Shown piece by piece: positions 1 through 57,251 of a stretch of DNA of 64,000 bases. The DNA is taken from NCBI GenBank assembly GCA_010093815.1, contig ML996591.1. One strand, given 5' to 3'. Source of the DNA: Pseudovirgaria hyperparasitica. Taxonomy: Eukaryota. Every line of letters begins with the position of its first letter. Positions within the stretch are counted from its first letter, which is position 1. Both the position numbers and the translations under genes were made by a program. Below the pieces are notes generated by a model. The model saw only the letters and a list, made by a program, of their open reading frames with translations. It had not been told where the DNA came from and did not search any database.

Positions 1-290
1 AACGTATACGTACGTCTAGAGGTCTAGAAGATTCCTATTATTAATTAAGAGAAGGATCTAGAATGTATAAGGAGGAATATATAAGGAACGGTCTCTCTAT
101 ATATTTAGTTCTCTCTCTATCTAGTCTTTACTTTAAGAATTATACTATATTCTTATTATCTTTAAGCTATACTCCGCCGATCCGTTTATTATATAATAGT
201 CTATTACGGCTAGATCCTATTATATAACTCTATTTAGATATATATTCCTTATATAAGGAATATTATATATCTATTTATACCTGCCCTTTT
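1..290. mobile_element. RIP-degraded repeat/transposon relic (partial, runs off the left edge)
   Basis: Very AT-rich, saturated with TpA and almost free of CpA/TpG until ~291, the classic RIP (CpA->TpA) signature. No ORF; element family not identifiable. Confidence 0.6.
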
Positions 291-1597
291 CACAGTTAGA
301 TCGGTGTTAGGACCAGGAACTGTGATGTGCATAACAAATTGGATAGAAAATATCTAAAGAATGGCTCTTTTTCAAGGCTTGTATGAGTCTATCGTAAGAT
401 ATCCAAAAAAGGGTTTTGAAGCTCTCGGGAAACTCATTGACCGCCATCGATTATTGCTAAGAGATACTATTATCCCGAAGCCAAATGAGCTCTTCTAATG
501 TAAGAACAACCTTATCTCATGTCAGACTACAAAGATACAACCCAATAAATCTCTGGGAAGAAATGTGAGTATGAATATGACCTGGTACATTAGAGAGGCG
601 AGAGCTTAGATCGGCCTAAGCTGTATAGATGTTATGTAATGGATAAAAGCCCTCTCGTAGAAGTTTATGTTCTAATTATACCTCGCTTGCGGAGATACAT
701 TGTTTGCTGCATATGTGCTCACATCCCGTCCTTGACTTCCGATATCATCCACTCAGCGTATCGTCTCCGGGCAGACACCATATTCCCGACTCGCAAGACA
801 TGAAACACTCTTTGCAGCTGTATGAGAGTCATGAGTATCACCGCTTTGGCACACATGACTCTGCACATGATGATACGACCGTGTTCGTGGGTAACACGAA
901 CCCGATGAATCAGTCACAACAGTCGTTCTGACAGTAAGATAGTGGAACAATGCGTGCTTCGTCACATGTTACGAGAATGGTCTACGTACGGATGTCATGC
1001 TACTAGGAGATGAATTATAACTTATTATCACAAGCTGAAGCGATTGGGTTTGCGGATTGAAACATGGCTTAAACGTTGATAAAACGTCTTGCTGTGAGCA
1101 TCGCGAGCACGTCGCATCTTGGGTGCCTACCCGGATTATGACACGATGCTCTATGTATCATATAGTATCCATTGCAATTTTACAAAGTGGCAGTCCGCAA
1201 AATCTCGGATAGTGACATAGTTTTGCATAATTTTCAGCCGTTATCTTGGCCTAACCCAGATAGGCGGACATGACTACACCGTACAATTGTCGAGAAATTC
1301 ACAAATCTGTATCTACTACTCGTGGGGACTTGGATCTGTACGTAACGATTCGATGCCTGTATGAGATATTTCAGATGTGTCTCGTCGATCGGCGTGGGAA
1401 TAGAATGATGAGACAATAGCGAAGGACACAAAGACTCAAGAGGCTCTCATTGGAGCACTTCATGAGCACATTAGAGTCATGCAATCAGTTCTGATGTACG
1501 CCCACACTAGTATCTATACCATGGTAGGTGCGTGATAATGTGGTTCTGGCCCCAGCACTTATTTGGTCAAACAAACTAACCTGAGGGAAAGAAAAGG

Positions 1598-1604
1598 TAT
1601 AAAA
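1598..1604 (+). promoter_or_regulatory. TATA box of the small secreted peptide gene
   Basis: TATAAAA ~105 bp upstream of ATG 1708. Confidence 0.45.
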
Positions 1605-1707
1605 CCCATGCATATACTGTACACAAAGGCATAGGTAAATCTACGGTCTACTTCTTTCGACCACTAAATAAGCGATCTGATACACGACATAATTAATACC
1701 TTTCGAC

Positions 1708-1946
1708 ATGAAGACAGTATTGCTACTTCTTTCAATCGCGTTAAGCGTAGCTGCCGCCCCGGTTGATGCATGTGAGTGTTACCAGTAAAATCAATCCAAG
1801 TCCATCTCGGTATGCTAATTATTCTCATAGCTCACGAGCTTGTTGCGAGACAAGGAAACAGTGGCGTTCGACCTCGACCATGGCGCCTGCTTGAGGCTAA
1901 AGACATTGTCGCAAGACAAACAGTGGAATTCGACCTCGGCCTTTAG
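1708..1946 (+). CDS. Small secreted repeat-peptide precursor (59 aa, KEP-like); second repeat frameshifted
   Basis: Exon1 1708-1771, intron 1772-1830 (GTGAGT...GCTAAT...TAG), exon2 1831-1946. Spliced product MKTVLLLLSIALSVAAAPVDASHELVARQGNSGVRPRPWRLLEAKDIVARQTVEFDLGL* has a clear signal peptide and duplicated xVARQ motif. Not in the ORF track. Confidence 0.75.
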
Positions 1947-2925
1947 CAGACAGAGAAAATAAAACCTCGTTAGATGGCGCATAAGGCTGTCAGTCGACAC
2001 GGTTGGGACTTATGATGGTGCGAAGAAGCAAAGATATTGTACATCGCTGCGAACGTTCATTGGGTTTACCACTTTTGCGCGGAGACATCAAAGAGTACTG
2101 GATACCAGATAGATCATCTATACACAGAGTAGAGAGCTTGGATAGCAAAATACTCTGGTTTCGACTATAACGATCTCATTTCAGTCTTTATTGGTCAGAG
2201 CCTCGATCGATATGATAATCCTAGATATCGGGTGATGTCGTCATGTAGTGGTAAGTGTGGGAATGAAAGAGTGGTCAGCAGGCTATCAAATCCTCTTCCA
2301 GAATGCTACAAGGCTAGCACAATGTGAAACGATGCATTACTCACATGAACAACTCGTGTTCAAGGATCATCCCATAACTCCAGCCCTGCGACGGCGATAA
2401 GGTCACTGTGACCGCTCCATTGGTGCTTCCGAAAAAACACAGTTACGGCAAGGGGCTTTCTCTTTACATGAAACGCAGCATCTCTTTCCAGCGAGCATTA
2501 GGTATTGTTTGCTTTTATTAATAAATGTCGGGTGATCGGATCGGGATACTTGGGAGATGGTCGGAGTTGAACCGCGTGGCGTGGGCATCCATCCGGATCC
2601 TTCCCGCTACCACTGCAGCCTCCATTTGGGTTCATACATCCATGCACGGCCTAAAATCACACACTTGGCTCGAGCTTCCAATAACGTGGCTCCTGGGTGT
2701 CACTCTGGTAACAATGCATACTGTAGCAACCCGATTTGATGCACGTGGACCTGCACACTGTCTCGCGAATTTACGGGTGACAGAAGATACTGGAGATGGA
2801 CATATCGATCAAGCCGTCATTTCAGATCTATACAGTGACCGATATGGCGTGAGAGCGACGTCAAGACATGGATAAAAGCAGTATAGAGGAAGACGAATGT
2901 CGTTGTGTACCATGTATGCTATGAC

Positions 2926-4282
2926 TCAGGGATCAAAATGCCAAGCAACCGCACCTGTTTTCGTGCCTTCCTTTGGTAAAAATTTTACAAGCTGCCCATA
3001 GCGGATGATATCTTTACTGAAGACCTGATGCATAATATTGCGCACTCCTACCAGGGGAAACACATACTGATCGATCATGTATGAGAGCCATGATGGCCAT
3101 GTGGTTCCATCGACGGCTTTGGTGGTGAGATCTATCGCATTCCTAGAGGGTTTCTCTACTTGCGCCCGGTACGTTTCGAAAACGTTCGTGAGAGACGATG
3201 TTGGCGGCGAGCTGCCTTCGCGATCAATCAGTTCTTCGAGACCGTTGATCAGGGAAACAACATGCATTGCTCCGATATTAAACCCCATGCCAGCGAAGGA
3301 CTCCATACTGGTGACAGAGTCTCCAGCCATGACGATGCGGTCGTGGTACCATAGATCCGAAAAGCCGGTTTCTTGGTCAGTCAAGATTGACCATTGGGAC
3401 TTTTTCCATATCTCGCCAAAAGTCACGTCTGCGAAGATAGGTTTGTCTCTCCAGGCGTCTACGAACTCCTGCTTCTCCTCCTCTGTATAGTGTTTTCGCT
3501 CAATTCTAGCTTTGGGTAGGCGCCTAGCAAGCACAAAGATCACTGTCTCTGCATTGGCACATGATTGGGCACCTAAAGGGCTCGACCTTGCTTCATAAAG
3601 AGTGCCTATCTCGCCTCGACCAGGATAAGGAGCATAGCCATACAATGTTTGGATATGTCGAGTGGTGGAGAGACCTTGTGTTTGGAGGCCGTTCTCTTGA
3701 GCTAACTTCTGCGCAGTCCTCAATGTATGGCTGTAGGTACCATCGCAGCCTAAAACAATAGAACCATTTTCGACGGAGCCATCATTAAGGAACACACGCA
3801 CGCCATTGGCGCCTGTCTTAATGTCGGAAATATTTGAGTTCAGTCGTATCGTTTCTCCGTGATTCTGAAGAGAATCACGTAAAAATCCGACTAATGCCTT
3901 CCGAGGCAGGTAGAGGCACGGGTAGCCATGGCTGCATATATCAGTCAATGATTATACAAAAAGGGTGAAGATCAAGGGCAACTGACTTATTCATCCAGAG
4001 TGATCCAACCTCGGTGCGTCTACATGTTTTTCCACCTATCATACGATCTTCTTTGAACTCCATAGGAGTCGACAGGGCTATCAACTGCTCTAGAAAACCA
4101 AGCTGCTCAATAACACGCAACGTACTCCCTTGCAAAAAGATACACGCACCGCCTTCTGCGGCAACCGTTGAACTTTTCTCAAGAATGACATACTTGATTT
4201 TGGCCGCAGTAAGGAGGTGAGCAGCTAGGAGTCCAACAGGTCCTCCGCCGTTAATAATGACACGAAAGTCGGTGTGCGACAT
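2926..4282 (-). CDS. FAD-dependent monooxygenase (group A, PaxM/CtvC-like epoxidase/hydroxylase type)
   Basis: Exon1 4282-3987 (VIINGGGPVGL Rossmann motif), intron 3986-3932, exon2 3931-2926 with GCDG and GD motifs (AGDSVTSMESFAGMGFN). Confidence 0.9.
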
Positions 4283-5220
4283 ATTGGTCCTGGTAGAGTG
4301 TGATATGATATCAAAAGGCACGGGGAGTTGTACGAGAAGAGTTTGTGAGTGCCGTTCTACACGAACCCGATCGCTCTTTGATGCGACTCGAGCACGTCAC
4401 GCTAAGTCGCGAGTTATGGTTCGATATATTTATAGATCCTTGGTATCTATACAGCACGCCATTAGATCTTCGAACGACCAACGCATACAAGCTTGCACTA
4501 GTTGTATGAAGGATCATAGCTTTCTGTTCCCAAGGTTCTCCTAAGATGGCAAGAAAGGAAGAACTGATGGTTCAACGCTACCCGGCACGTGGCTCCTATC
4601 CAAGCGTCATCCTTCCCGCTTATCGTCCGTCTCACGCTAGACATACTTCTGTATGGTAATACGGCCGAATGACAGCCCCAGACATCTGTGCGTTCGATGG
4701 AGTGTCACTAAGCGGCCCCCAGTCGCCCTGCCGGGTGGGATGAATCTGGGCGTAACACTCTATGAATAAGGACCGTAGAGTGCCAAGACATTGTAATTGG
4801 TCATTGTATAGACTTCCAAGCAACAACCGGAGGACATGGAGTGTGGGGGACCCTGTCTGTTCCGTACATAGGACAGTCGTGCCGTCGAACTGACCCACCT
4901 GCAACACATCATAGCTACAGCCAACAGCGAGCAGTGCACGACATTCCATCCGATTAGGTCGACGACTCGACATGCACGGTTGGGGGGACGGGGGAACAAT
5001 CGTTGGATTTTGGTAGCTGCGTAAGTTATACGATGGCTCAGAAACGTGACTTGGTGGTTGATGTAATGATTGTAATTCAACTCTAGACGACAATACATGT
5101 ACCCGAACACGAGAGAAGATAATTCATCTGGATATAATGTTGTATACATTCAAGCTTAAAATCATAATCATAGTCAAAATGCCTCTTTGATGCCCCAAAC
5201 AATATGGTGTTACAATGTTC

Positions 5221-6550
5221 TCAATTCCAATACTTAACAGGCTCAGCCGGCTGAGCTAGATCAGCTGTCATTGAGATCTCAGTCTGCTTGATGATACCAT
5301 CGTCCGGACGACACGGTCCGAGCTCCACGTCTTCATGCTCTGAAGGAGATCTCAACTTCCGTTCAGCTTCGTCCATTCGTCGGTATGACAATGCACCATT
5401 CCCTGATACAGTGGACGATGAGAATTTCGACCCTTTACCATAAGCATAAGTGCGACTCTTTAGACTTGTAAAGAAAGATGTCTTCATGATCGTTGCCTGG
5501 AAGAATCGCGGAAAGGTAGGCAAGCAGGCGCAAATCATCGTTGCGGTCACTTCGGCCACAGCCCAAAGTCCGAATTTGAGTCCAACGCGGGAGATATCAG
5601 GCGATATGTTCAGTTGTACAGTGTAGTATATCCTCACTGCAGAGCATCCACAGACACTAGTATAGGTTAGCATTTCTTGTTTGTCTGCTCGATGGTTCCG
5701 TGACTTACAAAGCTGCAGTCATGAAAATCAGTGCGATCTGCAGACGTTTTTGCCACGGCATCCGGAGCTTCCAAATGGCATATTGAGGAATGAGGATAAT
5801 GACGATATCGCTCACAATGTTGAAAATGGCACACGTCAAGTAGATTGCGTTCTGATCAGCGCATTCGCCACGAAGGAAGGGTTCCCAGGCTTTCTCTCGT
5901 GGATTGCACTGGAAGATGACAACAAACACATTTACCAAATAGTACAGAAGCACAAAAATACCAAAACTCCATGTGGACCACCACATGAAGTCGGACTTTT
6001 TGGTAGGCGCAAATATGGTGCGCAACTGGACACAAATTGAAAGTTTGACCAGCGCGAGCGTAGCGGAGTATGTGCCTGCCGCATATTGGAAATACTGCAT
6101 TATCTTAACACAAACCTGAATGATTCGATGCCTGTTTCGCATACCTTTCCAATGAGTATCATATTCTTTAGTTGGACATTCCATTGGTGTCGCCCTGCAC
6201 CATGAAAAGCGAATGCGCAACTGAAAGCGTTCATAAGGATGAAAGTTGACCATCCGAGAAGTAGAATCCCTTCGAGTATCAGTTCTACGACCATACACCT
6301 GGTAGCCTAGACACCACTTACAGTCATCCCAGGTCGCTCTTCTTATGATGGCCAGCTTGGTATATATGCGCGCAAATACCAGGAATGTAGCGATCACGAT
6401 ACAGACAATCGTTGTCCCAACAAACACCTCAGTGAGGTCTGGCGGATTAACAAAGTTTGGTACCACGCCTGGAGGAGGCGCCAACGCCGGACCTTCCAGC
6501 ATGCCTGGAGGCAGAGTTTGTCTGCGAAATATGATATTGGAAGAAAACAT
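5221..6550 (-). CDS. Fungal rhodopsin-domain / PTH11-like (CFEM-less) integral membrane protein
   Basis: Four exons (introns ~6321-6270, ~6144-6095, ~5708-5660). Motifs PPPGVVPNFVNP, GAGRHQWNV, KLSI, QCNP..KAW, NIVSDIVIILIP, EVTATMICACLP; multiple TM helices. Confidence 0.88.
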
Positions 6551-7336
6551 TTTTCTCTGGAGGAGGCAAACTGAACTGCTAGCTGTTAGGAGTGAATAGT
6601 TGATGGCTATAAGGCTGCTCGTTAGTCCTTCCAGTTACCAGATCTGTCAAAATAGTAACAGCCTTAAGATTTACATTGCATGAGCAGACATGGTTGTGTG
6701 CATAGTTGCGTTTCACCACGGGCCTCAATAACAATGATGAGTAGACAAGGTACCGAGGGATAGTCGCTTTCGGCAGCCTGCCAATGCCATTGATTGGATG
6801 AAGTCTGCCGGACCTGATGGCATACCATGTGCTCAGCGTATGAAGGTCCAGGATTACTGCAGCAGAAACAACTTGATGCATCCGGGACTTCAGGTTGCAG
6901 GTACAAGCACTTGAGCAACAAGCAAGGTTGTTGTCGAGTCGTGGATAGTTAGTCCAATATAGCACGCTTAATGTGGCTTAGCGCCGTGTTGTGCGCGTCT
7001 TGCTGCGTCTCCCTGCGTCTAGCGACGGGCTAACCCGAATTGGAAGCCACGCCGGCTCGGCGAGCCCCTCGTAGATAATGTAAAACGGCTTGTCAAACAA
7101 CCTTCCTCAAACCTTCCAGACGTCTCTCCGACCTTTTCCGTTCACTACCAGTGTTTCATACGGCACTTACTGCACGGCATCACAGTTACACGCTCTGCTG
7201 TGGTGAATACTAATGTCCGGGTTCAGTTTCTACCTGTCTTACGCCCTAAATCGACATCAACTACGAATTGATCCCTACCACCATGCATCATTGTCCTTGC
7301 ACTGACCGCCAGAAGTCCTCAGAGCCGTAGTGGGTC

Positions 7337-8131
7337 TTAGCTTGCTCGCATATTTGACTTCTCCACAGATGCGAGCATCCTTTCGATAACGTGGACCGTG
7401 CCATTGAAAGCGACACTATCCCTGCCACCAGGAATCTCATGACCCCCATCATGAGCAAAGACATGGCGCTTGCTCGCCTTACACATTTGGGCTAGCTGAG
7501 GTGCTAACTCTGGCTCTTCATCCCTCGCCCCCCAAATGTGGGCTGTGTAGAGCTGAATATCTGTATCGGCGGTCGCCTGCTGGTCGGGTATGTCCACGAA
7601 CGGTGGTCGTCCACAGAAGAAGATGGCACATTTGAATGGCGCCGTGCCGTTTTGTCGATTCTGCTTGGCAATCATAAACGCCGATGCAAGAGAGGTACCC
7701 TGAGAGAAAGCCATTACACCGTCAAATGGCCCCTCGTCTGCAACGTAACTTCCTAGATCAGTCACGGCCTTGCTAAAGGAGATAGGATCGGATGGCTTGT
7801 AGTAGACGAAATGCTCATCGGCCGGGTTGGACAACTTCTCAATGGCTTGTCTCTCAGTCATAATATGGTTTTAATCAACTGTAAGGGCTCTTACCTCGGT
7901 GCATAGGTGCTTGCACAACCCCTTGAACGAAATGATAACTATGTCCCGGCCCAAGTTCATGCCGCAAAGCAGCTTCAGAGCGTCAGTCCTTGTTTCCAAA
8001 GCCTTGTGATCAGACCTACCAGTCTGGCTTTCGAAGATCTACAATCTTCAACGTCAGCTCCGCTCAAGCCGGAGTTCTGGAGCTCTTACCTTGCTGGATG
8101 TACCTGCACCATGCAGGCAAAGAAACCGCAT
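7337..8131 (-). CDS. FSH1/DUF341 serine hydrolase (LovG-like trans-acting thioesterase/esterase)
   Basis: Exons 8131-8090 (MRFLCLHGAGTSSK), 8038-8020, 7972-7895, 7845-7337. Nucleophile motif GPFDGVMAFSQG, HIWGARD (Asp), HDGGHEIP (His). Divergent from the PKS. Confidence 0.92.
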
Positions 8132-8248
8132 ATCGTTCCAGTGGCTTGTCAATTCGGAAAGACTGAATTAGTCAAAGTGCATAATGAGTACTTCAATCCG
8201 TACTAATCGCTGCGGCCCCATGTTTATACCCATTCAACCGGCAGGAGC

Positions 8249-8281
8249 CGGACTATCAACGGACCTATCACGGACTATCAA
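8249..8281 (+). promoter_or_regulatory. Three tandem 11-bp direct repeats (CGGACTATCAA / CGGACCTATCA / CGGACTATCAA) in the hydrolase-PKS bidirectional promoter
   Basis: CGG triplets at 8249, 8260, 8271 (CGG-N8-CGG-N8-CGG), typical of Zn2Cys6 binding sites; each unit also contains a GATA core on the minus strand. Confidence 0.55.
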
Positions 8282-8677
8282 GGTGTCAATGCCTGACATC
8301 ACAACTGGCAAGCACTTCTTGGAACGGTTCCATTTTTGTTGACAGGGATCATGACGGAATCAGAATTACCAATTTAACCTTAATCGGTAACAAGGTGCTA
8401 TCATCTATCGACAAACTAGCCAAGTTGAAGCTCGCCCAAGTGGTTTCATCAGATCTATTCCCAGGAAAGTCTCCTTCAAGTTCCTCTCTGAACTCTTATC
8501 CTTATGCGCTTCAGATTCACTTCTCTACTTTGTTAGAATCGGCATATCAATTATTTCACGCAATCGACCCGTGGATTTGGGAGTGTTCAATATTCACTCT
8601 CTTGGCCAAGACCAGGTGTCCTTGTCTACTGGTCAGTGGTCAGTGGCGCACTGCGTTCGCATCTTTCAGCTCTCGTC

Positions 8678-11600
8678 ATGTCACCGGGCCGACTATTGGG
8701 GCATGATGACCGTGTTGAGGATGAAGCTTTCGATGAGGACGTAGATTTCCTGGAGCCTATCGCCATTATCGGATTCTCTTTGAGGTTTCCTCAAGTAGGA
8801 TCTTCTGCCGAAAAGTTCTGGGAGCTTTTGAAGACGAGGCAAGATGCCATGACAGCCACTCCCCCAAGTCGATTCAATGTGGATGCTTTCTATCACCCGA
8901 CGAAAAAAGACGCACTGAATGTAAAGGGTGCAAACTACATTCCCGAAGATGAACCCCTGGATGCCTTCGACAACGGTTTCTTCGGGATATCCCCGGCTGA
9001 GAGCCATGCAATCGACCCAGCACAACGGATCCTACTTGAGACCTCTTACCGTGCATTTGAGAATGCAGGTCTACGAATGGAGGATCTTAGGGGCACAAGA
9101 ACCTCCGTGCACACGGGATGCTTTTCGAGTGACTACTTTACCATGATGATGAGGGATTCTGATTACCTACCCACGTATGGGGCACTTGGGGTCTCGCTCT
9201 CTATGCTGGCGAGTAGAATCAGTTGGTTCTATGACCTTCGTGGCCCATCTGTCAACCTAGACTCTGCATGTTCTAGTAGCGCTATGGCCATCGATATGGC
9301 TTGCCAAGGACTGAGGACAGGCGAATCAACACTAGCAGTCGTTGCTGGTTCGAGTCTTCTTTTCGATCCCGACTATTCGCATATCCTGGATCACATGCAT
9401 ATGCTCTCCCCCGATGGGAAGTCGTTGTCCTTTGATGAGAAGGCCAATGGATATTCACGTGGAGAAGGTGTGGCTGTGTTACTACTGAAACCTGTATCAC
9501 AGGCTGTTCGGGATAATGATACAATTAGGGCTATCTTCCGTGCAACTGGATCAAATCAGGATGGTCGAACTCCAGGAATCACACAGCCTAGCAGTACTGC
9601 TCAAGCTGAGCTCATCCGTCGAACATATCGCAATGCTGGACTTTCTCTGAAGCACACCAGATATTTCGAGGCACATGGTGAGAGATATTATGCCTCTGAT
9701 ATTGTTGACTTGCTGATTCATGATTCTGTGTAGGAACCGGAACTCCAGTCGGAGATCCAATCGAAGCTAAAGCTATCAAGTCAGTTTTCCAATGGGACAG
9801 AGATACTACAGATCCTCTCTATATTGGATCTGCGAAGTCCCACATAGGTCACCTCGAAGGTGCTGCCGGAATAGCTGGGGTGATCAAAGCTATCATGATT
9901 CTGGAAAGCGGTGTCATTACACCGATAGCCAATCTCATTAATGTCAACAAAAAGATCGACCAGATTGATTCTTGTCTTGCATTTCCCAAAGCATGTGTTC
10001 CGTGGCCCCAAAATACAGAAATCAGGAGAGCGAGTGTTAATTCTTTCGGCTATGGAGGCAGTAACACTCACCTGGTACTTGACGATGCGCAGAGCTATCT
10101 TCTCCGAAATGGTCTTTATGCTCATCATAACACATACCCTCTTGTCACGGCATCTGAGATGAATGATTGGAATGAGGTCTCAAATCATTATTCAGACTTG
10201 CGCCATGACAAGGGCAATCAACCAATGGTCTTATTATTTTCTGCACATGAATCTTCAGCACTTCAATCCATGATAGTGGACTGGCAAGAGTACAGCAAAA
10301 AAAGGAGAGGACCAGATCAGCATCCAGTGTCTATTCGAGACTTGGCATATACTTTGGACACACGACGTAGCCGACTATCATGGTCTGCCGCCATATGTGC
10401 CACAAGCCTGGAGGATTTGGTTACGGTCGATCCCAGATCAGTGACACGCATACAGAAAAAGTCTGACACCCCTCGACTCGCCTTCATCTTCACAGGCCAA
10501 GGTGCTCAATGGTGTGCGATGGGCCGTGAACTTTTTGAGTATCCAATGTTTGCAAGGTTTATCGATGAGGCTGATAAACATTTGCGAGCCCTTGGAAATG
10601 TTTGGTCCGTAAGAGAAGAGCTATGGAGATCACCGGATGAAAGCCGCGTTGACCAGCCCGAGATTGCTCAGCCACTCACTTGCATTTTGCAAATCGGGCT
10701 TGTTGACCTCCTCTATGAAGCGAATGTCCGGGCGATGGCAGTAGTCGGCCACTCTATGGGAGAGATAGCGGCGGCATACTGTAGCGGTGCTATATCTAAG
10801 GCATCTGCTTTGCGACTTTGCTATTACAGAGGTCTTTACGTATCCAAAGTCCAAGAAAGGAGCACTATGAAAGGAGGAATGCTAGCCGTAGGAATAGGGG
10901 AGAGCACACTCGAGCCCTACATGAAACGACTGCGCTGCAAAATTCCAGACTTCAACATCGCCATCTCTTGCTTCAATAGTCCGAAAAACCTGACTTTGTC
11001 CGGCCCACTCGACCAACTGAACATGCTTCGCGTAGAACTTCAATCTCATGGAGTATTTGCCAGAGCTGTACGCGTCAGTGCTGCTTATCACTCGCCGCAG
11101 TTGGAATGTATCGTAAAGGATTGTTTAGCCCAATTTGAAGGCCTGAAACCGGGAACGAGGTATGACATACCCATGATCTCAACCGTCACTGGATTGAGGG
11201 TCTCTCATAATCAGTTACGGGACCCTTCACATTGGACCACGAATATGATTCAACCAGTAGAGTTTACCGCGGCTCTTACCACGCTTTGTCTACAAGGCCC
11301 AAAGAGCTTGACGCCGAAGATAGACGGTAGTCATCATCGGGCCGTTGTCGTAGACCATCTGATCGAAATCGGCCCACATGCCGCGCTTAGCCTCCCGGTT
11401 CGTGAGATACTGGAGACGCTTCCACGGCAAAAAGATCTTCAGTATAGCTCAGTACTCTATCGCAATCAGTCTGCAAGCAAGTGCCTTCTTCAGCTGGCAG
11501 GAAAATTAGCCTGCGAAGGCTTTCCAGTGGATCTAAGATTCCTGAACGAGCTAGGAGAGGACAATCTGGATCAACCTAAGGTTCTCCCTGACGGACCTCA

Positions 11601-14600
11601 ATACAAGTTTGACCACTCCCAGTCATTTTGGCATGAAAGTGAAGTCTCCCGGAACCACAGACTTCGCTCGCACAAACATATTCCGCTCTTAGGGAAGAGG
11701 TCACGGGAATGGAACCCTCTCCAACCGCAGTGGAGGTGTAGGCTCAGAGTGGCAGAATTGGCATGGGTATTGGATCATAGGATCAGTTCACAGACTATGC
11801 TTCCCGCTTCAGCGATGGTATCAATGGCAATCTCAGCTGTTACACAACTCACAGACGATGTTGAACACAAGTCTGCATTTGTTGTGCGAAATATGCACAT
11901 CAAATATCCCGTGATATTTTCAAAAGACACAGATGACATAGAGCTGAGACTGTCGATGTATCCGATCGACACACAGCAAAGAAAGAAGCCATGCGCTTGG
12001 AGATTTTCAGTGTTTTGTCGACAACAAAACCACTGGACCGAATGTTCTGATGGCTCTGTGAGCGTCGAGTACGACCATGGAAGGCAAGCTGAGGCTGAGA
12101 TTGGGTGTCACTATAAGCGGCGCCGTATTGCCCATGAGGCCTTATGTGCGCAAGATGTGCTACCCAAGGACCTTTACGAGTCTTGGCAAAGTCAAGGATA
12201 CCACTATGGGCCTAGCTTCCAAGGAATTACTAGTGCAAAATTCAACGGAGACCGAACTGCCACTGCTATCATTGACATACCTGAGGCACTGGCTATGGAC
12301 GAGGACTTCGCAGATTATCTCTTACACCCCGCAAGCCTCGACACTGTGATGCATATGGGTCTTGTTGCTCTAACATATGGAGCAACGCGCAATATCCCTA
12401 GCCAGGTTCCGGCTTATATTGATAGCTTATGGATCTCTGCGGCTCCTAAGTTACAGACCATAAAGCTTGAGGCTTCAGCTGAAGTATTGTCACAAAATGA
12501 TCAAAGCAGTGTGACCGATATATTTGCACTGGATCATCTTGACTCGTCGTTGCATGTTGTAGTTAAAGGAATCACTACTAAGACTGTCGCAGGTTTTGAC
12601 TCCAATATTTTGTCAAAAAGTCTTCAAAAGGGTTGCTTCTACCACGTGGACTCATTCTTGGACATAGAGAAGATGCCGCCTCATCAGCTTCAAAAGTTTC
12701 TTCAGCCTCCAGCCGGAGAAGAAGATATGGCAATCGACTTCTGGGAAGCTGTCCGAGAATATGTGGAATACATTTTGAAAGGATTTCGACATCACAAGAT
12801 CTCCAGCCGATTGAGCAAGCAGCAGCCTCATCTCGCTCGCTACTTAAAATGGGTCAATTGGGTACTTCGAGACACTGATGCTCGATCCAGCCCAAGTAAG
12901 ATTAGCATTGAAGAATGCAGATCTCGACTGGAGTCACAAGGGCCACTTGGTTTATTATATCTAGAGGCTGGGCAGAAGTTGTCGCACATTCTGAACGGAG
13001 GCACGAACCTATTGGATCCACGTTCCAACTTCAAAGAAAATCCAGCAGGAATTTATCACAAGGAGATGTCGTTAAACTCGACTTACATGGAGAGAGCATC
13101 AAGATATATCCGCTTTCTGGCCCTGAAGAACCCTGATATCAAAATCCTGGACATAGGCGATGGTACCCGGTCTTTCACTCATCATATCGAACATGCCCTA
13201 TGGGATGATGCTGTAGGAGTGGACTTATTCTCTGACTACGTCTATGCGGACATATCATTGGTCTCGCTACAGCGAGCTCAAGCCCGATTGGGTCCAAATC
13301 ATCCGAAAATGATCTTTAAGACGCTAGACATTGAGCAAGATCCTATATATCAGGGATTCGACAAGTCTAGCTTCGACATAATTGTAGCGTCGAACGTGCT
13401 TCATGCAACGAGTAGCCTCATCACAACAATGCAACGAGTGCGCAAGCTTTTAAAACCAGGTGGACAATTGATACTTCATGAAATAACACAGCCAACGAGG
13501 ATCGAGCCAGGTTTCATCCTTGGGCTGACCAATGGTTGGTGGCGCGCAGAGACAGACGGGTGCCGTATGAGTCGGCTACTTTCCGAAGAACAGTGGTCCG
13601 ATCTGTTCCAATCAAGCGGCTTTGCAGGTCCGCACCTTGTTCTGCACGACTTCGAGAATCCAGTGATCCAGTTCAACAGTATATTCTGTGCGACTACTGT
13701 TGCGGATCCAGATATAGATCCAGTTGCTCTGCAAATACCCCATCAACCTTCTGTAACACTTGTTACCTCGGGATCGCACATGGAATTAAAGTTGGGTAAA
13801 CGGATTCAGGAAGAATACTCTGACTTCGATTATCGCCCTGTCTGTATCTCAACTCTGGAAGAAGTTTCTGAATCGGAAGGAGCGTCGAACGAGCAACTCG
13901 TCTTCCTAATAGACATATACGAGCCATTCTTGCGGACTATGACAGCAGTGAAGTTTGACCTACTGAGAAACGTCTTCCGCCGCGCTAAACACGTCATTTG
14001 GGTATCATCCGGTGGAGGGACCGCCTCGGATCCAAATTACGGCATGATCGATGGATTTGTTAAGGTGCTAAGGATTGAGATGAACGTTACCGTTTCGACC
14101 TTGACACTGGAATGTAGTAAACGAAGCATTGAAGACCAAGCGAGGCACGTGTGCCAAATAGTTCATGCGCACGGGTCCTGCTCTCCAGGGGTTCAAGAAG
14201 AATACTGCATCGTTGATGATAATATTCATATTCGACGTATAACCGAAGCTTCACCTATTTCGGGCCAGATGTCAGCTATCGCCAACGGGACAGAATTGAA
14301 AACGCAAGACACGATCTCGGCAAGACCTTTTGCCATAAAACGCTCAGCTGATGGACGTATAAGATGTGAATCGATGTCTCCGGGTCATCCCACGCTAAGA
14401 GACAATGAAATAGAAATTGAAGTGCAAGCCTTGGGCCTCGAAAAGACAACTCTCAAACATGAAAGGTTTGAGCCAGAAAACGATGTTCCACTTTGCGAAG
14501 GATCAGGTGTTGTAACACATGTAGGACATAGTGTACAACTTCAGCGAGGAGATCGTGTGTGTTTTCTGGCGCATGTCCTTCCGTTGTCCAATGTCAGAGT

Positions 14601-16488
14601 TCGACAGACACAGGCAGTCCGATTTCCAAACGATATGGACTATTCAACGGCGGCTACGCTACCGAAAGACCTACTTGTATCATATGTGCTAACCACCAAG
14701 CTTTTACGAATAAACAGTAACAGTACTGTACTGATTCACGGTGGTTCTGCATCTTTCGTACGAGCATTACTGCATATCGTGCAGCCGCTTGGCCCTCAAC
14801 TGTTCATCACAACAGAGACGGATTGTACTACGGAGGAACTCTGCCAGTATCAGTGCACTGTCTTACCTACGCCGTGCTCATCACAGTATCTCTTCGCGAT
14901 GAAACCCAAAGGCGCAGATGTTGTCATAGATATTGGCATGGCGACGGGCATCGACGACGCATCAACGTATACTTCCAAATTCGGGCAGTACTTTCGCTTG
15001 CGCATGGACCTGGATTGTGATCTGCCGCAAGCTCAAACGTCTAATTTGTCGAAGCACGCTATTGCATTTTCCATGACATACGACTCCATCCTATCGCACT
15101 ACTATAATGAGGACAACTGCCTGACCTCGGCCGCACAATACATTCGTCAGCAAGGTATGGGTCATCAAAAGGCTCCGGTGTTTGCTTTGCAGGATGCCGA
15201 AGACGCGCTTGAAATGCTGAAGCCGGGATATGTCGAAAAGACGATCCTAGAGCTCAAGAATGATGACAAAATCACACTTCATACGCCCATTGCTGATAAG
15301 GCGATATTTGATGCCACGGCAACCTATGTAGTAGCCGGGGCTTTCGGTGCTTTAGGTCAAGCAGTAGTGCGATGGATGGCGCGGAACAATGCTAAGTACA
15401 TGATACTACTATCCCGGTCCGGTGCCCGAACACCTGAAGCAAAGATGATGCTTCAAGACTTCCGAGGGGCAGGAATTGAAGTCGCGGCGCCCATCTGCGA
15501 TATCTCGCATTACGACACTCTGCGTAGTGTCTTATCCGAGATCTCAGCGACGATGCCAAGAATCAAGGGTTGCATCCAAGCATCTGGCATCCTGAATGTA
15601 GGTACACTTTTCCGTTCAGGTATGACACGATACTAACGTAATTTCCAGGATAAAGCCTACGAGAAGATGGACTTCGAAGACTGGAATAGCGTGACCAGGC
15701 CTAAAGTTGACGGATCTTGGAATCTGCATGAAATTCTTCCTCAAGGCATGGATTTCTTCATTATGACATCTTCACTATCTGGTGTGCTTGGGCAAGCGAC
15801 ACAGATGAACTACGCTGCCAGCAGTACCTATCAAGATGCACTTGCACGCTATAGAGTGTCTAAAGGAGAGAGGGCAGTCTCAATCGATCTTGGCGCTCTT
15901 CTGACCGGAGGACTTCTGGACAGTATCATGCTTGAACGTTTTGTCCGATCAGGCCTCTACATACCAATTCCAGAGCAAGACGTATTGGCATTGCTTGAGA
16001 TCTACTGTCGGGACGGTACTCTGGCTGATAGCTCATCTAAGTGCCAGGTTATCACTGGCGTCAAGAAACCAGTCGATAGCGTTGCGGAAGGTCATTATTT
16101 GTCTGAAGCGCTGCAAACGCCTTTGTGGAGCTTAATGCGTGTCACTCACGGACGCAAAACCTCGACCTCAGGGCTTGCCCGTGAGGATAGCACTCTGAAA
16201 GAGCAGGTGAATGAAGCAGCGACTGATATCGAGGCAGCAGCGATCGTAACAAATGCCTTGTCAGAGCGCTTTGCGTCACTCCTTCTACTACAAGTGGATA
16301 AAATAAATCCAGACAAACCTTTTCACAGTCTCGGCGCAGACTCACTGGTTGCAATCGAAGTTCGTAACTGGACTCTGAAAAACTTTGAGGTAGATATCCC
16401 GGTATTCGATTTGCTGGGGGACAGGACTATCAACATAACTGCAACATATCTAGCACAAACCCAGCGATCCAAGAATTCTGCATCATAA
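8678..16488 (+). CDS. Iterative highly reducing type I PKS, KS-AT-DH-cMT(degenerate)-ER(degenerate)-KR-ACP, ~2567 aa
   Basis: Exons 8678-9677, 9734-15597, 15649-16488. KS DSACSSS, EAHGTGT (across intron 1), GHLEGAAG; AT GQGAQW, GHSMGE, AYHS; DH DHRISSQTMLP and HPASLD; MT-like ILDIGDGTRS; ER-like LIHGGSASFV; KR GAFGALG and QMNYAAS; ACP GADSLVAIEVRNW. Confidence 0.97.
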
Positions 16489-16494
16489 CGGAGG

Positions 16495-17166
16495 CTACTC
16501 GCTTGTTATGTCTTTCTTGGCTAAGAATTGGCCATCCTTCAGTGCGGGAACAGAACCTGCGCTCCCTATATTCGTCATCATCGTGACATAGATATATGCT
16601 GCAACCAAATGACCGACGCTCGCCACCTTTCCCTTCCCAAGTACGCTCTCCGCAGCTTGGAAGTCTTCATCCGGTAGTGGTGCTCGAGACTTGGCCAACT
16701 TCAGAGCTAGTTTGTACACAACAGCCTCTGGTTCCTCTAGGCCGTCCGGACACTTGCCACTCACGGCCTGCTTGATCTGTAGTTCCGAGAACCCTACTTT
16801 TCGCGCAATCTGCGAATGAGCATAGAGCACAAACGGGCAGTCGCAAGCTGCAAGCACGGCGAGACAGCCGAGCTCGCGCTCCTTCATGGTGAAGCATTTC
16901 TGGAATACAAATGCGTTTGCGAGGTTAAACCAGGAGTCTATCAATTCGGGGGTATAGCTGTGATTGGGAGCTCAGCAATTGTATAGTTTATATTTGAATT
17001 AGAGAGATACATACTAGAGAGACGCATACGGGCCCATCAATGAGTCGTTTTCATCTTTCCAGACTAGCCCAGGGATCTTGCTGAACTCGAAATCGAACAC
17101 TCTAGCCTCCAGGTCTTGCTGTTCTGGAGTGAGAGACTCCGGTGAAGGTTTTGGGAATCGAGACAT
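16495..17166 (-). CDS. Carboxymuconolactone decarboxylase (CMD)/AhpD-fold protein
   Basis: Exon1 17166-17015 (MSRFP...LTPEQQ...LMGPYASL), intron 17014-16958, exon2 16957-16495 with ERELGCLAV...YAHSQIARKVGFSELQI, typical of fungal CMD-family proteins. Confidence 0.82.
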
Positions 17167-19403: not shown

Positions 19404-19947
19404 TTATTTTCTTCCCGCATTCGGACTCCCGGGAGCAGGGTTGAAGTCGATGTGTCCCGGGGCATCGGTAGGGGCAGGGTTGGGAGCACAAAGCGTAGCT
19501 CCAACGGGTCCGAGATGGCCCCCAATGCAGCCCTCCGCACCGCCTTGGTTGATATAACCCCCGGCCGTGCCCTGCGCAATGTCGCCAATGTTGCCGGCAA
19601 GATGGCCCGCAGCGCCCTGTCCTCCAGCACTGCTCTGAAGCACACCCGCGAGCTCACCGTGACCGGGTCCCAGGTTGATGAAGCCCTCGCCTCCGACTTG
19701 GTCCTGTAGGAAATTGGGTTAGTTGGCTGCCATTAGGGAATCTGGGAGGAAGAGATGCACGTACGACACCGGCGGAGTTCTTGCCCTCGATGGGGAGGAG
19801 CTGGAATTGGAAGGGCTCGCTGGTGTATGAGGCCTGTGGGACGCGGACCTCGTTGGGAGCCTTGACGACGGCGACAGGGGCTGGTGTGATGAGGGGTGAA
19901 GCGGTTGCGCCGAGGGCGAAGGCGAAAGCGAGGATGACTTGAACCAT
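19404..19947 (-). CDS. Small secreted glycine-rich protein (~160 aa, 2 Cys), candidate effector
   Basis: Exon1 19947-19765 (signal peptide MVQVILAFAFALGATASP), intron 19764-19704 (GTACGT...CTAAC...CAG), exon2 19703-19404 in frame (DQVGGEGFINLGPGHG...NAGRK*). Confidence 0.8.
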
Positions 19948-21169
19948 GGTGTCTGTCTGATTGAGATTTTGATCGAGGTACAATGGTAGTTCGAGTCCTT
20001 GAGTCGAGAGAGGAATGGATGGATTCCAGAGGTTGTTCGAAGGTTTATATGCCTCCAGATACGGTGTGCATCGAGCGTCCCGCATACCCGCATCCAGACC
20101 AGAAAGCCATACAGCGTGAACGGGGATCTACAATGTCTGGTCTGTTGTTCCGACTGAATTATCAGCACCAGGCGGGAGATATACCGCGGCTTCTCTATAG
20201 CTTGTCACTGGCTTATTCCACTTAGCGTGAGATCATCACATTCGTAGCGAGCTAATACCCTAAGAGCGACCCTCAGAGGTATAATTGCCCTCCATAACAC
20301 TCAAGCGTCTTGCGGGGTACATCTTCGTAGAGCTATTCGTCGAATCGCTGATATGATAGTGTCTTGTTCGGGTGAAAACTGAATTGGCTGCATATGCGCA
20401 ATGGAAAATCCCGTGGCGCCTTCAGGGCAACATGGTAAATTCCCGCCATCTAGTCGTGGATTATTCGATCTTTGTTTGTCTGATTCTACTGGTTTTGTGT
20501 CGTCCTGACTTCAAGCTCGTATACCTTCATGTGCTATGCGGGTGCTGTGACCATCGTGAAGCTATCGTATGGACACGAACGCCAGTGGTGAGAGGTCAAG
20601 ACAGTAGAGCGTACTTTCGTATAATATCAAATTCAGTGATGCCGTACCATGCCCCCTCACGACAAGTAAGAACGACTTGATGCAGGACTGAAACATTTCT
20701 CGAAGCCACCACTTGGGACCGGACTCATGCTTTAGCGTGTGATTTTACGGGATCTGCCTCGGCTTAAAATGTCATGCCTCCACGTGGAACGCCACATGAT
20801 GGACTTAGAAAATGTGAGCCTGGTCTGAAAGCTCGAAGCCGTAGTAGGCGTAACAACAATGCTGTGAGCTTGTGAAGATGGAGGCTCATGCTTCCGGACG
20901 ATCGTCTTCAGGGATGGTTTAGTGGCCGCATGCCAAGATTTCTTATAAACTGGGGTTGATTTGGAAACAAGCTTCGCGGGGTAAATGCATGTGTGTTTAT
21001 GCGAAGGAGCCGTTGCAGTGCGGGTGGTCAGTATATCGCTGACATGTATCACGGTTGTTAAAGTTGTTAGATGGGTCGGATGGTTCGCCAGATGTGCTAC
21101 CCCAAAACATCATTGTTGGAACACAGAGATGAGCCGTAGGATTTGACATTTGTGCTAATACTGACCATC

Positions 21170-54079: not shown

Positions 54080-56047
54080 ATGTCCGAATACATTGGCCAT
54101 AACAAGGACCACCATGTCGACGAGACCAAGCTCTCACACGACCACTCGCCCCACCCCCATAGCTCCGATCTCGAGAATGGCGACGTCAAGTCTGCTCCGC
54201 TGGCCCGCAGCCTCAAGGGACGACACATGCAAATGATTGCCATTGGTATGCCATACGCCTCGACAAAGTTCCGCTGAGCACAAAACATCCTAACTTTTTG
54301 GTCTCCATAGGCGGTGCTATTGGCGCTGGTCTCTTCGTTGGTTCGGGAAGTGCTCTACATTCCGGTGGGCCAGCAAGCTTGGTATGCTCCACACCCATTG
54401 CTTGTCCTGTCTTGTCATGTCTTGTCTCAGGCTAATCATGATTCCGCCTTCTTCTAGCTCCTTGGCTACATCATCACTGGAATAATGCTTCTGTTGACAG
54501 TCCAGGCCCTTGGGGAGATGGCCGTCCTCTATCCTGTCAACGGCGCTTTCTTCAACTACATTGTCCGTTTCGTGGATCCGTCGTGGGGCTTTGCCGTCGG
54601 CTGGGATTACGCCCTCAACTGGGTAATACGACATGACCCCTGTCTCACCCGTTACTGTGCCCATTTGCTAATTACACATCCTACAGCTTATCATCCTACC
54701 GTTTGAAATCACCGCTGCCGGTCTCACAATAAAGTACTGGGGTGAATACAACATCGGCATCTGGATCGCCGTCTTTTTGGCGATCCTTACGGCCGTCCAG
54801 TTTTTTGGTGTGCGCGGATACGGCGAGGGTATGTAAAGATTCCTACTCGCAATTCATCCACCCCAGCCCCTGCTTACACGCCTGCAGTCGAATTTGTCCT
54901 GGCCATTATCAAGATTGCTGCTTGCGCTGGCTTCATCATCCTTGGCATTATCATAAATTGCGGTGGCGTCCCGGGTGACAACCGCGGTTACATTGGTGCA
55001 CGGTACTGGCATGACGGTCGTGCCTTCCAAAACAGTTTCAAGGGCTTCTGCTCCGTCTTCGTCACTGCCGCTTTTGCCTTTTCCGGAACCGAATTGACCG
55101 GTCTCGCCGCTGCCGAAGCTGCGAACCCGCGCAAGTCTCTCCCAAAGGCTTGTCGCCAGGTGTTTTGGCGCATTGCCTTCTTCTACGTACTCAACATCTT
55201 CATCCTCGGCCTGATTGTCGACTCGAACTCGGACTACCTCCTCAACTCGTCTGGTGCTGGCAACACACAGTTCTCCCCCTTCATTGTCGCCATCAAGGAC
55301 GCTGGCATCAAGGTCCTGCCATCCATCTTCAACGCCGTCATCACCATTGCCGTCATCAGTGTGGCCAACTCTGCCACGTATGGCTCCACCCGCACCATCC
55401 AGGCCCTCGCCGTCAAGGGCATGGCGCCCAAGCAGCTTGCCTATGTCGACAAGAAGGGACGCCCGGTTCCCGTCATTATCCTTCAGCTCATCTTCGGTCT
55501 CCTCGCTTTCGTGAACGAAGCTCCCGAAGTCGGCAACCAATTCTTCAACTGGCTCCTCGCCCTAGCCGGCTTGTCCAACTTCTTCATATGGGGCTCCATC
55601 TGCCTCGCACACATCCGCTTCCGCATGGCTTGGACCTACCAAGGCCGCACCCTGTCAGAGATTCCCTACAAGGCCTATTTTGGCATTCCCGGCTCCGCCG
55701 TCGGCCTCTTCCTCAACTTCATGTGCCTCGTCTTTCAATTCTACGTCGCCCTGTTCCCGATCGGCGGCGATCCTCCGGACGCCGAGGCCTTCTTTGGTGC
55801 CTATCTTGCCGCTCCCATCACCCTCGCCCTCTTCGTCGGCTGGAAGGCCTACACCGTCTTCACGAATAATCTGTACCATCGCCAGCAGACCTGGCGGCCG
55901 TACGTCTTGCTTTCAGAAATGAATCTTCACGAGGGCATGCGTGATATTGCGCTCGACACCGACGACCATGTTGTCGAAAAGGGCCATCGCACTATCGGTC
56001 AGAAGATTCTCGGCGCGCCAAAGTCTCTTCTCCGCGCCTTTTTCTGA
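54080..56047 (+). CDS. Amino-acid permease (APC superfamily, YAT family)
   Basis: LARSLKGRHMQMIAIG / GAIGAGLFVGSG; QALGEMAVLYP; FAFSGTELTGLAAAE; CLAHIRFR; several introns. Confidence 0.93.
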
Positions 56048-56464
56048 GAGCGCAGCGAATGAAACGGACACATGGCCCTCCCTTTTCAAGGCATCCTTTT
56101 CGGACAATTTTTTTTTGGTATTTGGCAATAGTTCTATTAAGTTGCTTGAAGACGCGTTGTATACCACGTGGGTTTTGCTTAGTGGCGTTCAAATGTATGT
56201 TAAGAGATTCCTCCCTGCCCTCCCCCGTCGCCCGGCGCCGGTCTCGGAAACTAGATATATGCATGAACCAGACACTACACAACTGCTGCAATACAACTTT
56301 GTCGTCTCAGGGAGAATCTGTTTGTTATTCGTGCTAATAGACTGATTATACGATACTGCACTACAGTAGTCTACACATAGACAACAACGACAAAGTCTAC
56401 AACAATGGAGCGAGATTGAGGGGGCCAATTGAATCTATTTCTAGGGGCTCTCCAATTCCCGACA

Positions 56465-57137
56465 ATTTTTATTTTTATTTTTATTTTTATTTTTATTTTT
56501 ATTTTTATTTTTATTTTTATTTTTATTTTTATTTTTATTTTTATTTTTATTTTTATTTTNNNNNNNNNNATTTTTATTTTTATTTTTATTTTTATTTTTA
56601 TTTTTATTTTTATTTTTATTTTTATTTTTATTTTTATTTTTATTTTTATTTTTATTTTTATTTTCATTTTTATTTTAATTTTTATTTTAATTTTTATTCT
56701 AATTTTTATTTTAATTTTTATTTTAATTTTTATTTTAATTTTTATTTTAATTTTTATTTTAATTTTTATTTTAATTTTTATTTTAATTTTTATTNNNNNN
56801 NNNNNNNNNNNNNNNNNNNNNNNNNNNNNNNNNNNNNNNNNNNNNNNNNNNNNNNNNNNNNNNNNNNNNNNNNNNNNNNNNNNNNNNNNNNNNNNNNNNN
56901 NNNNNNNNNNNNNNNNNNNNNNNNNNNNNNNNNNNNNNNNNNNNNNNNNNNNNNNNNNNNNNNNNNNNNNNNNNNNNNNNNNNNNNNNNNNNNNNNNNNN
57001 NNNNNNNNNNNNNNNNNNNNNNNNNNNNNNNNNNNNNNNTTTTTATTTTAATTTTTATTTTAATTTTTATTTTAATTTTTATTTTAATTTTTATTTTAAT
57101 TTTTATTTTAATTTTTATTTTAATTTTTATTTTATTT
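56465..57137. repeat. (TTTTTA)n microsatellite grading into (TTTTAATTTTTA)n, with assembly gaps (N 56560-56569, 56795-57039)
   Basis: Directly visible; true length unknown because of Ns. Confidence 0.95.
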
Positions 57138-57251
57138 TTTGGTTGTGGTCCCCCGCCCGTCCTTCACTCACCCAACGCCGTTGTTTCTACTTTTCAAACT
57201 CGGGGAGATGGACGGGTTAATTAGATAGATTGATAGGTAAAGGGACATACG

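What the first reader, a model, noticed from the sequence alone, without database searches (positions are those of the whole stretch)
1708..1984. Hidden secreted repeat-peptide precursor (core QGNSGVRPRPW) invisible to the ORF track
Seen: TATA box, signal peptide, canonical 59-nt intron, then ELVAR|QGNSGVRPRPW-RLLEAK-DIVAR|Q... The architecture signal + (acidic spacer-xVAR + short core)n matches fungal Kex2-processed repeat proteins (KEPs), which yield peptide signals, toxins or RiPPs. The cleavage site is monobasic (AR) rather than KR. Inference: the mature peptide would begin with Gln (pyroglutamate-forming) and carries RPRP, recalling the PRP motif of proline-rich antimicrobial peptides. 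I do not recognise this core, so it may be an undescribed fungal peptide family.
Basis: partly seen in the sequence, partly recalled or inferred. Interest (0 to 1): 0.72.

Follow-up and report, generated by a model that had tools for sequence, protein, structure and literature searches.

The report
Orphan fungal two-repeat secreted peptide precursor
A small, spliced gene that protein collections miss, in a fungus that parasitises rust fungi, encodes a secreted precursor that is probably cut to release one short positively charged peptide; its second copy is knocked out of frame, no relative was found, and its function is untested.

Summary
The gene is real. It has a TATA box at 1598, an ATG at 1708 and a hydrophobic leader. 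Contigs of two runs skip exactly the 59-nt GT..AG intron. The product is 59 residues and stops at 1946, not 1984. It has two monobasic Kex2-type sites (LVAR|Q, IVAR|Q) but only one in-frame core: unit 2 is 4 nt shorter than unit 1, so its NSG[VI]RPRP core is read in another frame. All four runs agree, so this is not an assembly slip. The two units differ mostly at third codon positions (dN/dS about 0.17, P 0.045), which suggests selection on both cores before the shift. A neighbouring gene identifies the organism as Pseudovirgaria hyperparasitica, a rust mycoparasite without close sequenced relatives. No homologue or paralogue was found. The gene works like a Kex2-processed repeat precursor but fails both published definitions (three or more repeats, dibasic sites). 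It also fails the proline-rich antimicrobial peptide definition and has no UstYa neighbour. The likely product is a pyroglutamate-capped linear peptide of about 21 residues; the 11-residue end has no good cut site. Function is untested.

The parts
1598..1604 (+). TATA box, 45-52 nt upstream of where the spliced contigs begin (1649, 1656)
   Evidence: contigs cannot show a true start
1708..1771 (+). exon 1 coding part (64 nt): predicted signal peptide (about codons 1-16, 1708-1755) and start of the pro-peptide
   Evidence: the cleavage point is inferred from the small-residue pattern, no SignalP run
1772..1830 (+). 59-nt GT..AG intron with CTAAT branch site at 1815
   Evidence: joint 1771>1831 in runs X3 and X4
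1831..1946 (+). exon 2 coding part up to the TAG stop; the spliced product is 59 aa
1836..1850 (+). first acidic spacer and monobasic site (LVAR, fits LxxR)
1884..1916 (+). linker and second spacer/site (IVAR); the peptide between the two sites is 22 aa, or 21 after loss of the last Arg
1917..1946 (+). expressed C-terminal 9-mer (Gln-led, net charge -2), the out-of-frame reading of core 2; the 4-nt length difference to unit 1 lies at its start
   Evidence: no indel in 4 of 4 runs
1947..2400 (+). 3' untranslated region covered by the spliced contigs (X4 to 2083, X3 beyond 2400)

Best explanation
A lineage-restricted precursor of a linear secreted peptide, which arose by one internal duplication and has lost its second core. 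SHOWN: the gene structure, splicing, the 59-aa frame, the two-unit DNA repeat, the frame shift in unit 2, and the presence of Kex2 and glutaminyl-cyclase homologues in the genome. INFERRED: the signal peptide is removed; Kex2 cuts after LVAR and IVAR; a Kex1-type carboxypeptidase removes the last Arg; the N-terminal Gln is cyclised to pyroglutamate. The main product is a cationic peptide of about 21 residues (net +2), perhaps trimmed from its C-terminus towards the conserved NSG[VI]RPRP part. By-products are a 12-aa pro-piece and a 9-aa acidic tail. Before the shift the gene gave two related RPRP peptides. Most likely role (weakest step): an extracellular, unmodified ligand-type peptide, acting as a signal or on the rust host, and not a cyclised RiPP. 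I rate signal and host-directed activity about equally.
For: Splice joint in 2 of 4 runs, the two that lack the intron. Hydrophobic leader and list of Arg/Lys sites. LxxR motif with aliphatic P4. Unit 1 against unit 2 over 13 codon pairs: 8 differences, 6 at third and 0 at second positions, 5 synonymous and 3 conservative; dN/dS 0.17, binomial P 0.045. Three repeat precursors beside UstYa genes in this same genome mix KR with single-Arg sites (ER, SR) in one repeat register (L091, L094, L097). Kex2 on C17. Glutaminyl-cyclase homologue on C14, E 6e-23 to human-type QC structures. Pyroglutamate, C-terminal trimming and apparent cuts after single Arg in KEP peptides (PMC9769878 passages). No UstYa match on C27 among 27 matches genome-wide.
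Against: No peptide data. No homologue in any search and no paralogue (-57/59), so conservation across species could not be tested. The selection signal is thin: 13 codon pairs, with ends chosen by me where similarity stops and with the codons at the gap and the Trp codon left out. It is P 0.083 for the part after the gap alone, and it dates from before the shift. Ala is not among the favoured P2 residues listed in PMC8528282. An Arg|Gln pro-peptide junction is common in fungal secreted proteins (recalled). X3 and X4 are not on record as RNA, come from one sample, and may be the same strain. The gene lies 1.7 kb from a contig end, so left-hand neighbours are unseen.
Confidence: 0.58

Rival explanations
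1. A decaying relic: a once functional two-core precursor that is still transcribed and spliced but no longer under selection, so any peptide it makes is without effect.
For: Frame shift in unit 2 in 4 of 4 runs; single copy, orphan; lies 1.4 kb from an AT-rich block with a RIP-like signature at 1-300 (composite index 1.12). The selection signal only dates from before the shift.
Against: TATA box, leader, intron, both sites and core 1 are intact; the coding sequence shows no RIP signature (composite index -0.45); spliced contigs exist in two runs.
Confidence: 0.2
2. A K2PP-type or plain small secreted protein: one cut after the first site (or none) leaves a 31-residue (or 43-residue) mature chain, and the repeat is incidental.
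For: LxxR after a short disordered pro-piece is the K2PP pattern. The second site has Ile at P4 and Ala at P2. A single-sequence model puts a short helix over the second site (residues 22-28 of exon 2; mean pLDDT 59, unreliable).
Against: The second site is conserved against the first at synonymous-biased positions. There is no Cys and no confident fold. The last nine residues are an out-of-frame reading.
Confidence: 0.1
3. A proline/arginine-type antimicrobial peptide (PrAMP-like) used against the rust host or leaf microbes by entering cells and blocking translation or chaperones.
For: One PRP motif and net charge +2; [IV]RPRP also opens Bac7 in Table 1 of PMC7736402; mycoparasitic lifestyle (PMC3317363 abstract).
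Against: Proline is 18% of the 11-mer and 10% of the 21-mer against a 25% threshold; the mean charge of known members is +5. No match among solved chains of 20 residues or more at E 10.
Confidence: 0.07
4. A dikaritin-type RiPP precursor cyclised by UstYa/DUF3328 enzymes acting from elsewhere in the genome or from the unseen left flank.
For: The genome has 12 UstYa loci. The core has a Pro-Trp end, and Umemura notes W-with-P cores beside DUF3328 genes. A rhodopsin-domain gene lies 3.3 kb away, as at 5 of 12 UstYa loci.
Against: No UstYa match on C27; no Tyr; the Trp is not shared by unit 2. The genome's UstYa-linked precursors have 4 to 12 or more near-identical units. The neighbouring genes form a reducing-PKS cluster.
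Confidence: 0.04
5. Core 2 is still expressed, through an assembly error, a cryptic second intron or ribosomal slippage.
For: Four GT/GC..AG spans of the right phase exist in exon 2, one of 50 nt (1866-1915) with a branch-like CTAAA. Contigs drop rare variants.
Against: No indel and no second joint in 4 of 4 runs. The donors are non-consensus, both in-frame alternative acceptors of intron 1 meet stops, and there is no slippery heptamer at 1905-1924.
Confidence: 0.03

Closest known systems
Kex2-processed repeat proteins (KEPs), Le Marquer et al. 2019 (PMC6339444; passages and supplement search) and Umemura 2020 (PMC7329392; passages, sections 12-13 and supplement search)
   Same: Signal peptide, acidic spacer, basic cut site, repeated short core, no folded domain; orphan status is usual (2560 of 7878 KEPs stand alone).
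   Different: Two units at DNA level and one in frame, against at least three; single-Arg [LI]VAR sites against KR/RR/KK/RK; no XA/XP Ste13 dipeptides after the sites.
K2PP effectors with LxxR sites (PMC8528282, first of three parts read; bioRxiv 10.1101/2020.05.27.120113, passages)
   Same: [quoted passage not shown]
   Different: No folded mature domain follows; a second, duplicated site lies 22 residues on; the organism is a mycoparasite, not a plant pathogen.
Pyroglutamate-capped linear KEP peptides of Coprinopsis cinerea and other agarics (PMC9769878; passages)
   Same: Gln right after the cut; linear product; possible single-Arg cuts and C-terminal trimming.
   Different: No sequence similarity was found; those precursors are multi-repeat with dibasic sites, in basidiomycetes.
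Proline-rich antimicrobial peptides such as Bac7 and the apidaecins (PMC7736402; passages)
   Same: A PRP motif, net positive charge, release from a precursor.
   Different: Proline is under 25%, the charge is low, there is one motif only, and activity and an intracellular target are untested.
Dikaritin RiPP precursors (ustiloxin, phomopsin and asperipin type; PMC7329392 passages)
   Same: Secreted precursor with Kex2-type sites.
   Different: No Tyr, no UstYa/DUF3328 gene on the contig, no high-copy core.

Membership tests
KEP (Le Marquer 2019; Umemura 2020) | N-terminal signal peptide | tested here: inconclusive
   Basic N-terminus, hydrophobic stretch (mean up to 3.3) and small residues before the likely cut; SignalP, which both surveys use, could not be run
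KEP (Le Marquer 2019; Umemura 2020) | At least three repeats | tested here: not met
   Two units in DNA, one core in frame; a possible third remnant is at chance level (302 of 3000 shuffles); criteria
KEP (Le Marquer 2019; Umemura 2020) | Repeats flanked by KR, RR, KK or RK | tested here: not met
   All 6 Arg/Lys after the leader are single
KEP (Le Marquer 2019; Umemura 2020) | Kex2 present in the genome | tested here: met
   One P-domain protease on C17
KEP (Le Marquer 2019; Umemura 2020) | Actual cleavage and release of peptides | not testable with these tools
   Needs peptidomics
K2PP (LxxR) precursors | LxxR, KR or RR in the first half, after a pro-piece of more than four residues | tested here: met
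   LVAR ends at residue 28 of 59 after a 12-residue pro-piece; criteria
K2PP (LxxR) precursors | Folded mature effector domain after the pro-domain | tested here: inconclusive
   31 residues, no Cys; single-sequence model has mean pLDDT 59, pTM 0.17; no Pfam or PDB match
Dikaritin RiPP precursors | UstYa/DUF3328 gene among the nearest genes | tested here: not met
   0 of 27 PF11807 matches lie on C27; only 1.7 kb of left flank exist on this contig
Dikaritin RiPP precursors | Tyr in the core for ether cyclisation | tested here: not met
   No Tyr in the 59-aa product; requirement as stated in PMC7329392
Proline-rich antimicrobial peptides (PMC7736402, Box 1) | At least 25% proline | tested here: not met
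   2 of 11 and 2 of 21 residues
Proline-rich antimicrobial peptides (PMC7736402, Box 1) | Net charge at least +1; PRP motif indicative | tested here: met
   Net +2 and one PRP
Proline-rich antimicrobial peptides (PMC7736402, Box 1) | Antimicrobial, with DnaK or the ribosome as target | not testable with these tools
   Needs assays
Alpha-type pheromone precursors | KR sites followed by XA/XP Ste13 dipeptides, with repeated cores | tested here: not met
   The sites are followed by QG and QT, and there is no KR; definition

The most novel reading that the evidence does not exclude
The gene is a living example of a class of fungal repeat-peptide precursors cut only at single-Arg [LI]xxR sites, which KR/RR-based surveys miss by design. 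Its pyroglutamate-capped RPRP peptide is an undescribed bioactive molecule of a rust hyperparasite: it acts on the rust host, or signals through the rhodopsin-domain membrane protein encoded 3.3 kb away. Other isolates or species carry two or more intact cores.
Probability: 0.2. Interest if true: 0.65.

Novelty: new variant of a known kind. Interest (0 to 1): 0.33.

Why it matters
If the processing model holds, it gives a short peptide, easy to synthesise, from a natural enemy of rust fungi. It would also show that precursor surveys tied to dibasic sites and three repeats overlook small, intron-split, single-Arg precursors. The frame shift in unit 2 is a neat case of a repeat precursor losing a core. 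The limits are real: the architecture is well known, orphan precursors of this kind are common, only one core is expressed, and nothing yet shows activity.

Tried and rejected
Homologue searches with the exon-2 frame. No candidate among proteins of 30-98 aa. 23 candidates and 0 scoring at E 10 among longer ones. HMMER over 1.84 billion representatives gave 2 hits, both unnamed long tandem-repeat translations with summed weak matches; rejected. ESM Atlas: no usable hit, then best 0.84 to bacterial clusters, below the tool's reliable range. PDB 0 at E 10; Pfam 0; Rfam 0 in 1-5000. A degenerate core pattern in JGI metagenomes gave 2 matches: one off-frame inside a long bacterial ORF, one in GC-rich DNA without leader or repeat; rejected. 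These collections are thin in fungi and the query is short, so absence is weak evidence.

Own genome. Protein, DNA and exon-1 queries hit only this locus. Four motif patterns gave 18, 14, 10 and 30 matches against 22, 9, 16 and 21 for the reversed controls. None of the non-self matches printed showed the precursor layout (2 matches did not translate to the motif and were not printed).

Sequencing runs. No holder was listed as RNA. Contig depth was not used to rank expression.

Other readings. A third repeat remnant near 1965-1980 is at chance level. Rescue of core 2 by splicing or slippage is unsupported. The fold prediction was uninformative and no fold search was run. The prokaryotic promoter scan was irrelevant and empty. 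Of 5 M28-family loci tested against PDB, 1 matched glutaminyl cyclase and 4 matched aminopeptidases; the other M28 matches were not tested. Resemblances to plant peptide hormones and to GnRH came to mind from memory only; they were not tested and are given no weight.

Literature. Four core motifs gave 5 unrelated papers (listing only). No papers for LxxR + Kex2 + repeat + secreted peptide or for DUF3328 + Pth11 + precursor peptide. Searches gave nothing that changes the reading (listings only). Supplement searches of both KEP surveys were empty, but the head rows shown for Umemura's tables list accessions rather than sequences, and Le Marquer's KEP table is a PDF that may be pictures, so these blanks say little; the genus name does not occur in Umemura's text or tables. 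PMC10589705 (passages): deleting six KEP genes singly had no effect on sexual reproduction, so a KEP-receptor link is not established there.

Full report
Verdict. It is a 59-residue secreted precursor with two single-Arg Kex2-type sites and one in-frame core. A second core exists in the DNA but is out of frame. No relative was found. It works like a KEP but is not one by the published definitions.

Gene structure. TATAAAA lies at 1598-1604 and is the only TATAWAW match in 150-3590 outside the AT-rich contig start (1 of 12 matches). The ATG is at 1708. Exon 1 has 64 coding bases and encodes a basic N-terminus, a hydrophobic stretch (7-residue mean up to 3.3) and small residues at the likely cut; SignalP was not available. 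The intron, 1772-1830, is 59 nt with donor GTGAGT, CTAAT at 1815 and a TAG acceptor. Four runs hold the stretch. Contigs of X1 and X2 span it unspliced and may be the source of the assembly. Contigs of X3 and X4 (one sample, a second study) join 1771 to 1831 and cover 1656 to beyond 2400 and 1649-2083. X3 and X4 are not on record as RNA, but they skip exactly a GT..AG intron, which I read as spliced transcript. The product is absent from the protein collection, while neighbouring proteins are in NCBI (2 of 5 exact look-ups), so it is probably unannotated.

The spliced frame ends at the TAG at 1944-1946. After the second site come nine acidic residues unrelated to core 1. Unit 2 is 4 nt shorter than unit 1 at this point. 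None of the 4 runs shows an indel, so this is not a private assembly error, though all four may come from one strain. Both in-frame alternative acceptors of the intron meet stops. Four spans of the right phase for a second intron have non-consensus donors and are not seen in the contigs, and there is no slippery heptamer.

The repeat is real and was probably under selection. The two units align with a score that 0 of 5000 shuffles reach; 5 of 3163 adjacent-block pairs of the window reach it, this one and four in simple repeats. Over 13 codon pairs in the register of unit 1 (5 before and 8 after the gap), 8 differ: 6 at third positions, 2 at first, none at second. Five are synonymous and three are conservative (E/D, L/I, V/I); dN/dS is about 0.17 and the binomial P is 0.045, or 0.083 for the part after the gap alone. 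I left out the codons at the gap and the Trp codon, and chose the ends where similarity stops, which favours a low dN. The conserved block covers the spacer, the site and NSG[VI]RPRP. It does not include the Trp or the linker. A possible third remnant is at chance level (302 of 3000 shuffles).

Organism and neighbourhood. A neighbouring NFU1 gene is 100% identical to a protein labelled Pseudovirgaria hyperparasitica; the next hit is 83%. That species is a mycoparasite of rust sori (PMC3317363, abstract). With no close relatives in the collections, an orphan peptide gene is expected. The gene lies 1.7 kb from the start of contig C27. Bases 1-300 have a RIP-like signature (composite index 1.12); the coding sequence does not (-0.45). 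To the right lie a FAD monooxygenase, a rhodopsin-domain membrane protein, an FSH1 hydrolase and a reducing PKS, a polyketide cluster with no evident link to peptide processing. None of 27 UstYa matches is on C27.

Relatives. None were found: word-indexed searches, HMMER over 1.84 billion representatives (2 spurious repeat hits), ESM Atlas, PDB, metagenome pattern (2 chance matches), own genome, and earlier notes of this scan. The query is short and unannotated fungal assemblies could not be searched, so this is weak evidence of absence.

How it most likely works. LVAR fits the LxxR motif, and Ile is accepted at P4 (PMC8528282, first part read; bioRxiv 10.1101/2020.05.27.120113, passages). Ala is not among the favoured P2 residues listed there, which counts against efficient cutting. 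The genome has one Kex2 homologue and a glutaminyl-cyclase homologue. As an internal control I fetched 13 stretches around the 12 UstYa loci. Three hold clear multi-repeat precursors (4, 4 and 12 or more units), mostly with KR but with single-Arg variants in the same register; two more hold two-copy repeats that I did not follow up. KEP peptides in agarics are often pyroglutamate-capped and C-terminally trimmed, and some appear to be cut after single Arg (PMC9769878, passages). I therefore infer cuts after residues 28 and 50, giving a 12-residue pro-piece, a 22-residue peptide (21 after loss of Arg; net +2) and a 9-residue acidic tail. The 11-mer needs a cut for which there is no good site: two Arg are followed by Pro, which kexins avoid (recalled), and the third has Trp at P2. 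It could still arise by trimming. The role is the weakest step: an extracellular linear peptide acting as a signal or on the rust host. A rhodopsin-domain gene lies 3.3 kb away, against a base rate of about 1.5% for a random point, but such genes are common in metabolite clusters (recalled) and this one sits inside the PKS cluster.

Comparison with known kinds. Both KEP surveys require three or more repeats and dibasic sites (PMC6339444, passages; PMC7329392, section 13); both criteria fail. The K2PP sequence criterion is met, but no folded domain follows. Dikaritin criteria fail. The PrAMP definition needs 25% proline (PMC7736402, passages); the candidates have 18% and 10%. The core motifs were not found in the paper library; the supplement searches of the KEP surveys were empty but say little. 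Stand-alone precursors are common: 2560 of 7878 KEPs had no homologue.

Scores. Observation partly confirmed; interpretation partly supported; a new variant of a known kind; interest 0.33. Most novel reading not excluded: an active RPRP peptide from a class of single-Arg precursors that surveys miss (probability 0.2, interest 0.65 if true).

Noticed in passing
G000 C11:402-407k, C11:508-512k, C13:24-26k, C13:721-724k, C20:731-735k: 5 of 12 UstYa (PF11807) loci have a fungal rhodopsin-domain (PF20684) gene within 3.5 kb, against a base rate of about 1.5% (72 merged loci; P about 2e-6). The control does not allow for both gene types gathering in metabolite clusters. One literature search found nothing on this pairing.
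   Followed up: partly
L091:2714-3428 (-) (G000:C29): Secreted four-unit repeat precursor with KR/RR/ER sites and a Tyr-containing unit, about 1 kb from three UstYa genes; candidate dikaritin RiPP precursor.
   Followed up: no
L097:8263-8740 (+) (G000:C19): Frame with about 12 near-identical KR-ended acidic units containing two Tyr, about 3 kb from UstYa genes; candidate dikaritin RiPP precursor.
   Followed up: no
L094:3780-4144 (-) (G000:C11): Frame with four Pro-rich units after KR/SR sites, lying between a rhodopsin-domain gene and a UstYa gene; no Tyr in the unit.
   Followed up: no
L093 near 3376 (-) and L098 near 7053 (-): Two-copy peptide repeats near UstYa genes on C1 and C10; may be exons of further precursors.
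   Followed up: no
window 2926-16971: Reducing-PKS cluster: FAD monooxygenase, rhodopsin-domain protein, FSH1 hydrolase, PKS (KS-AT-DH-MeT-ER-KR-ACP, in three open frames that change at about 9724-9730 and 15633-15637; introns not mapped) and a CMD-family gene. Product unknown.
   Followed up: no
window 1-300: AT-rich block (29% GC) with a RIP-like dinucleotide signature at the contig start, probably a mutated repeat.
   Followed up: partly
window 56465-57405: Long ATTTTT microsatellite (about 54 copies, with Ns) and further simple repeats; 22% GC in 56001-57000.
   Followed up: no
window 25067-27697 (-): 876-aa ORF with several Cys clusters and acidic tracts, no Pfam match at E 0.01 and not in the collection as an exact sequence.
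   Followed up: no
window 19654-20127 (-): Frame containing what looks like a signal peptide after an internal Met; possible small secreted protein, no Pfam match.
   Followed up: no
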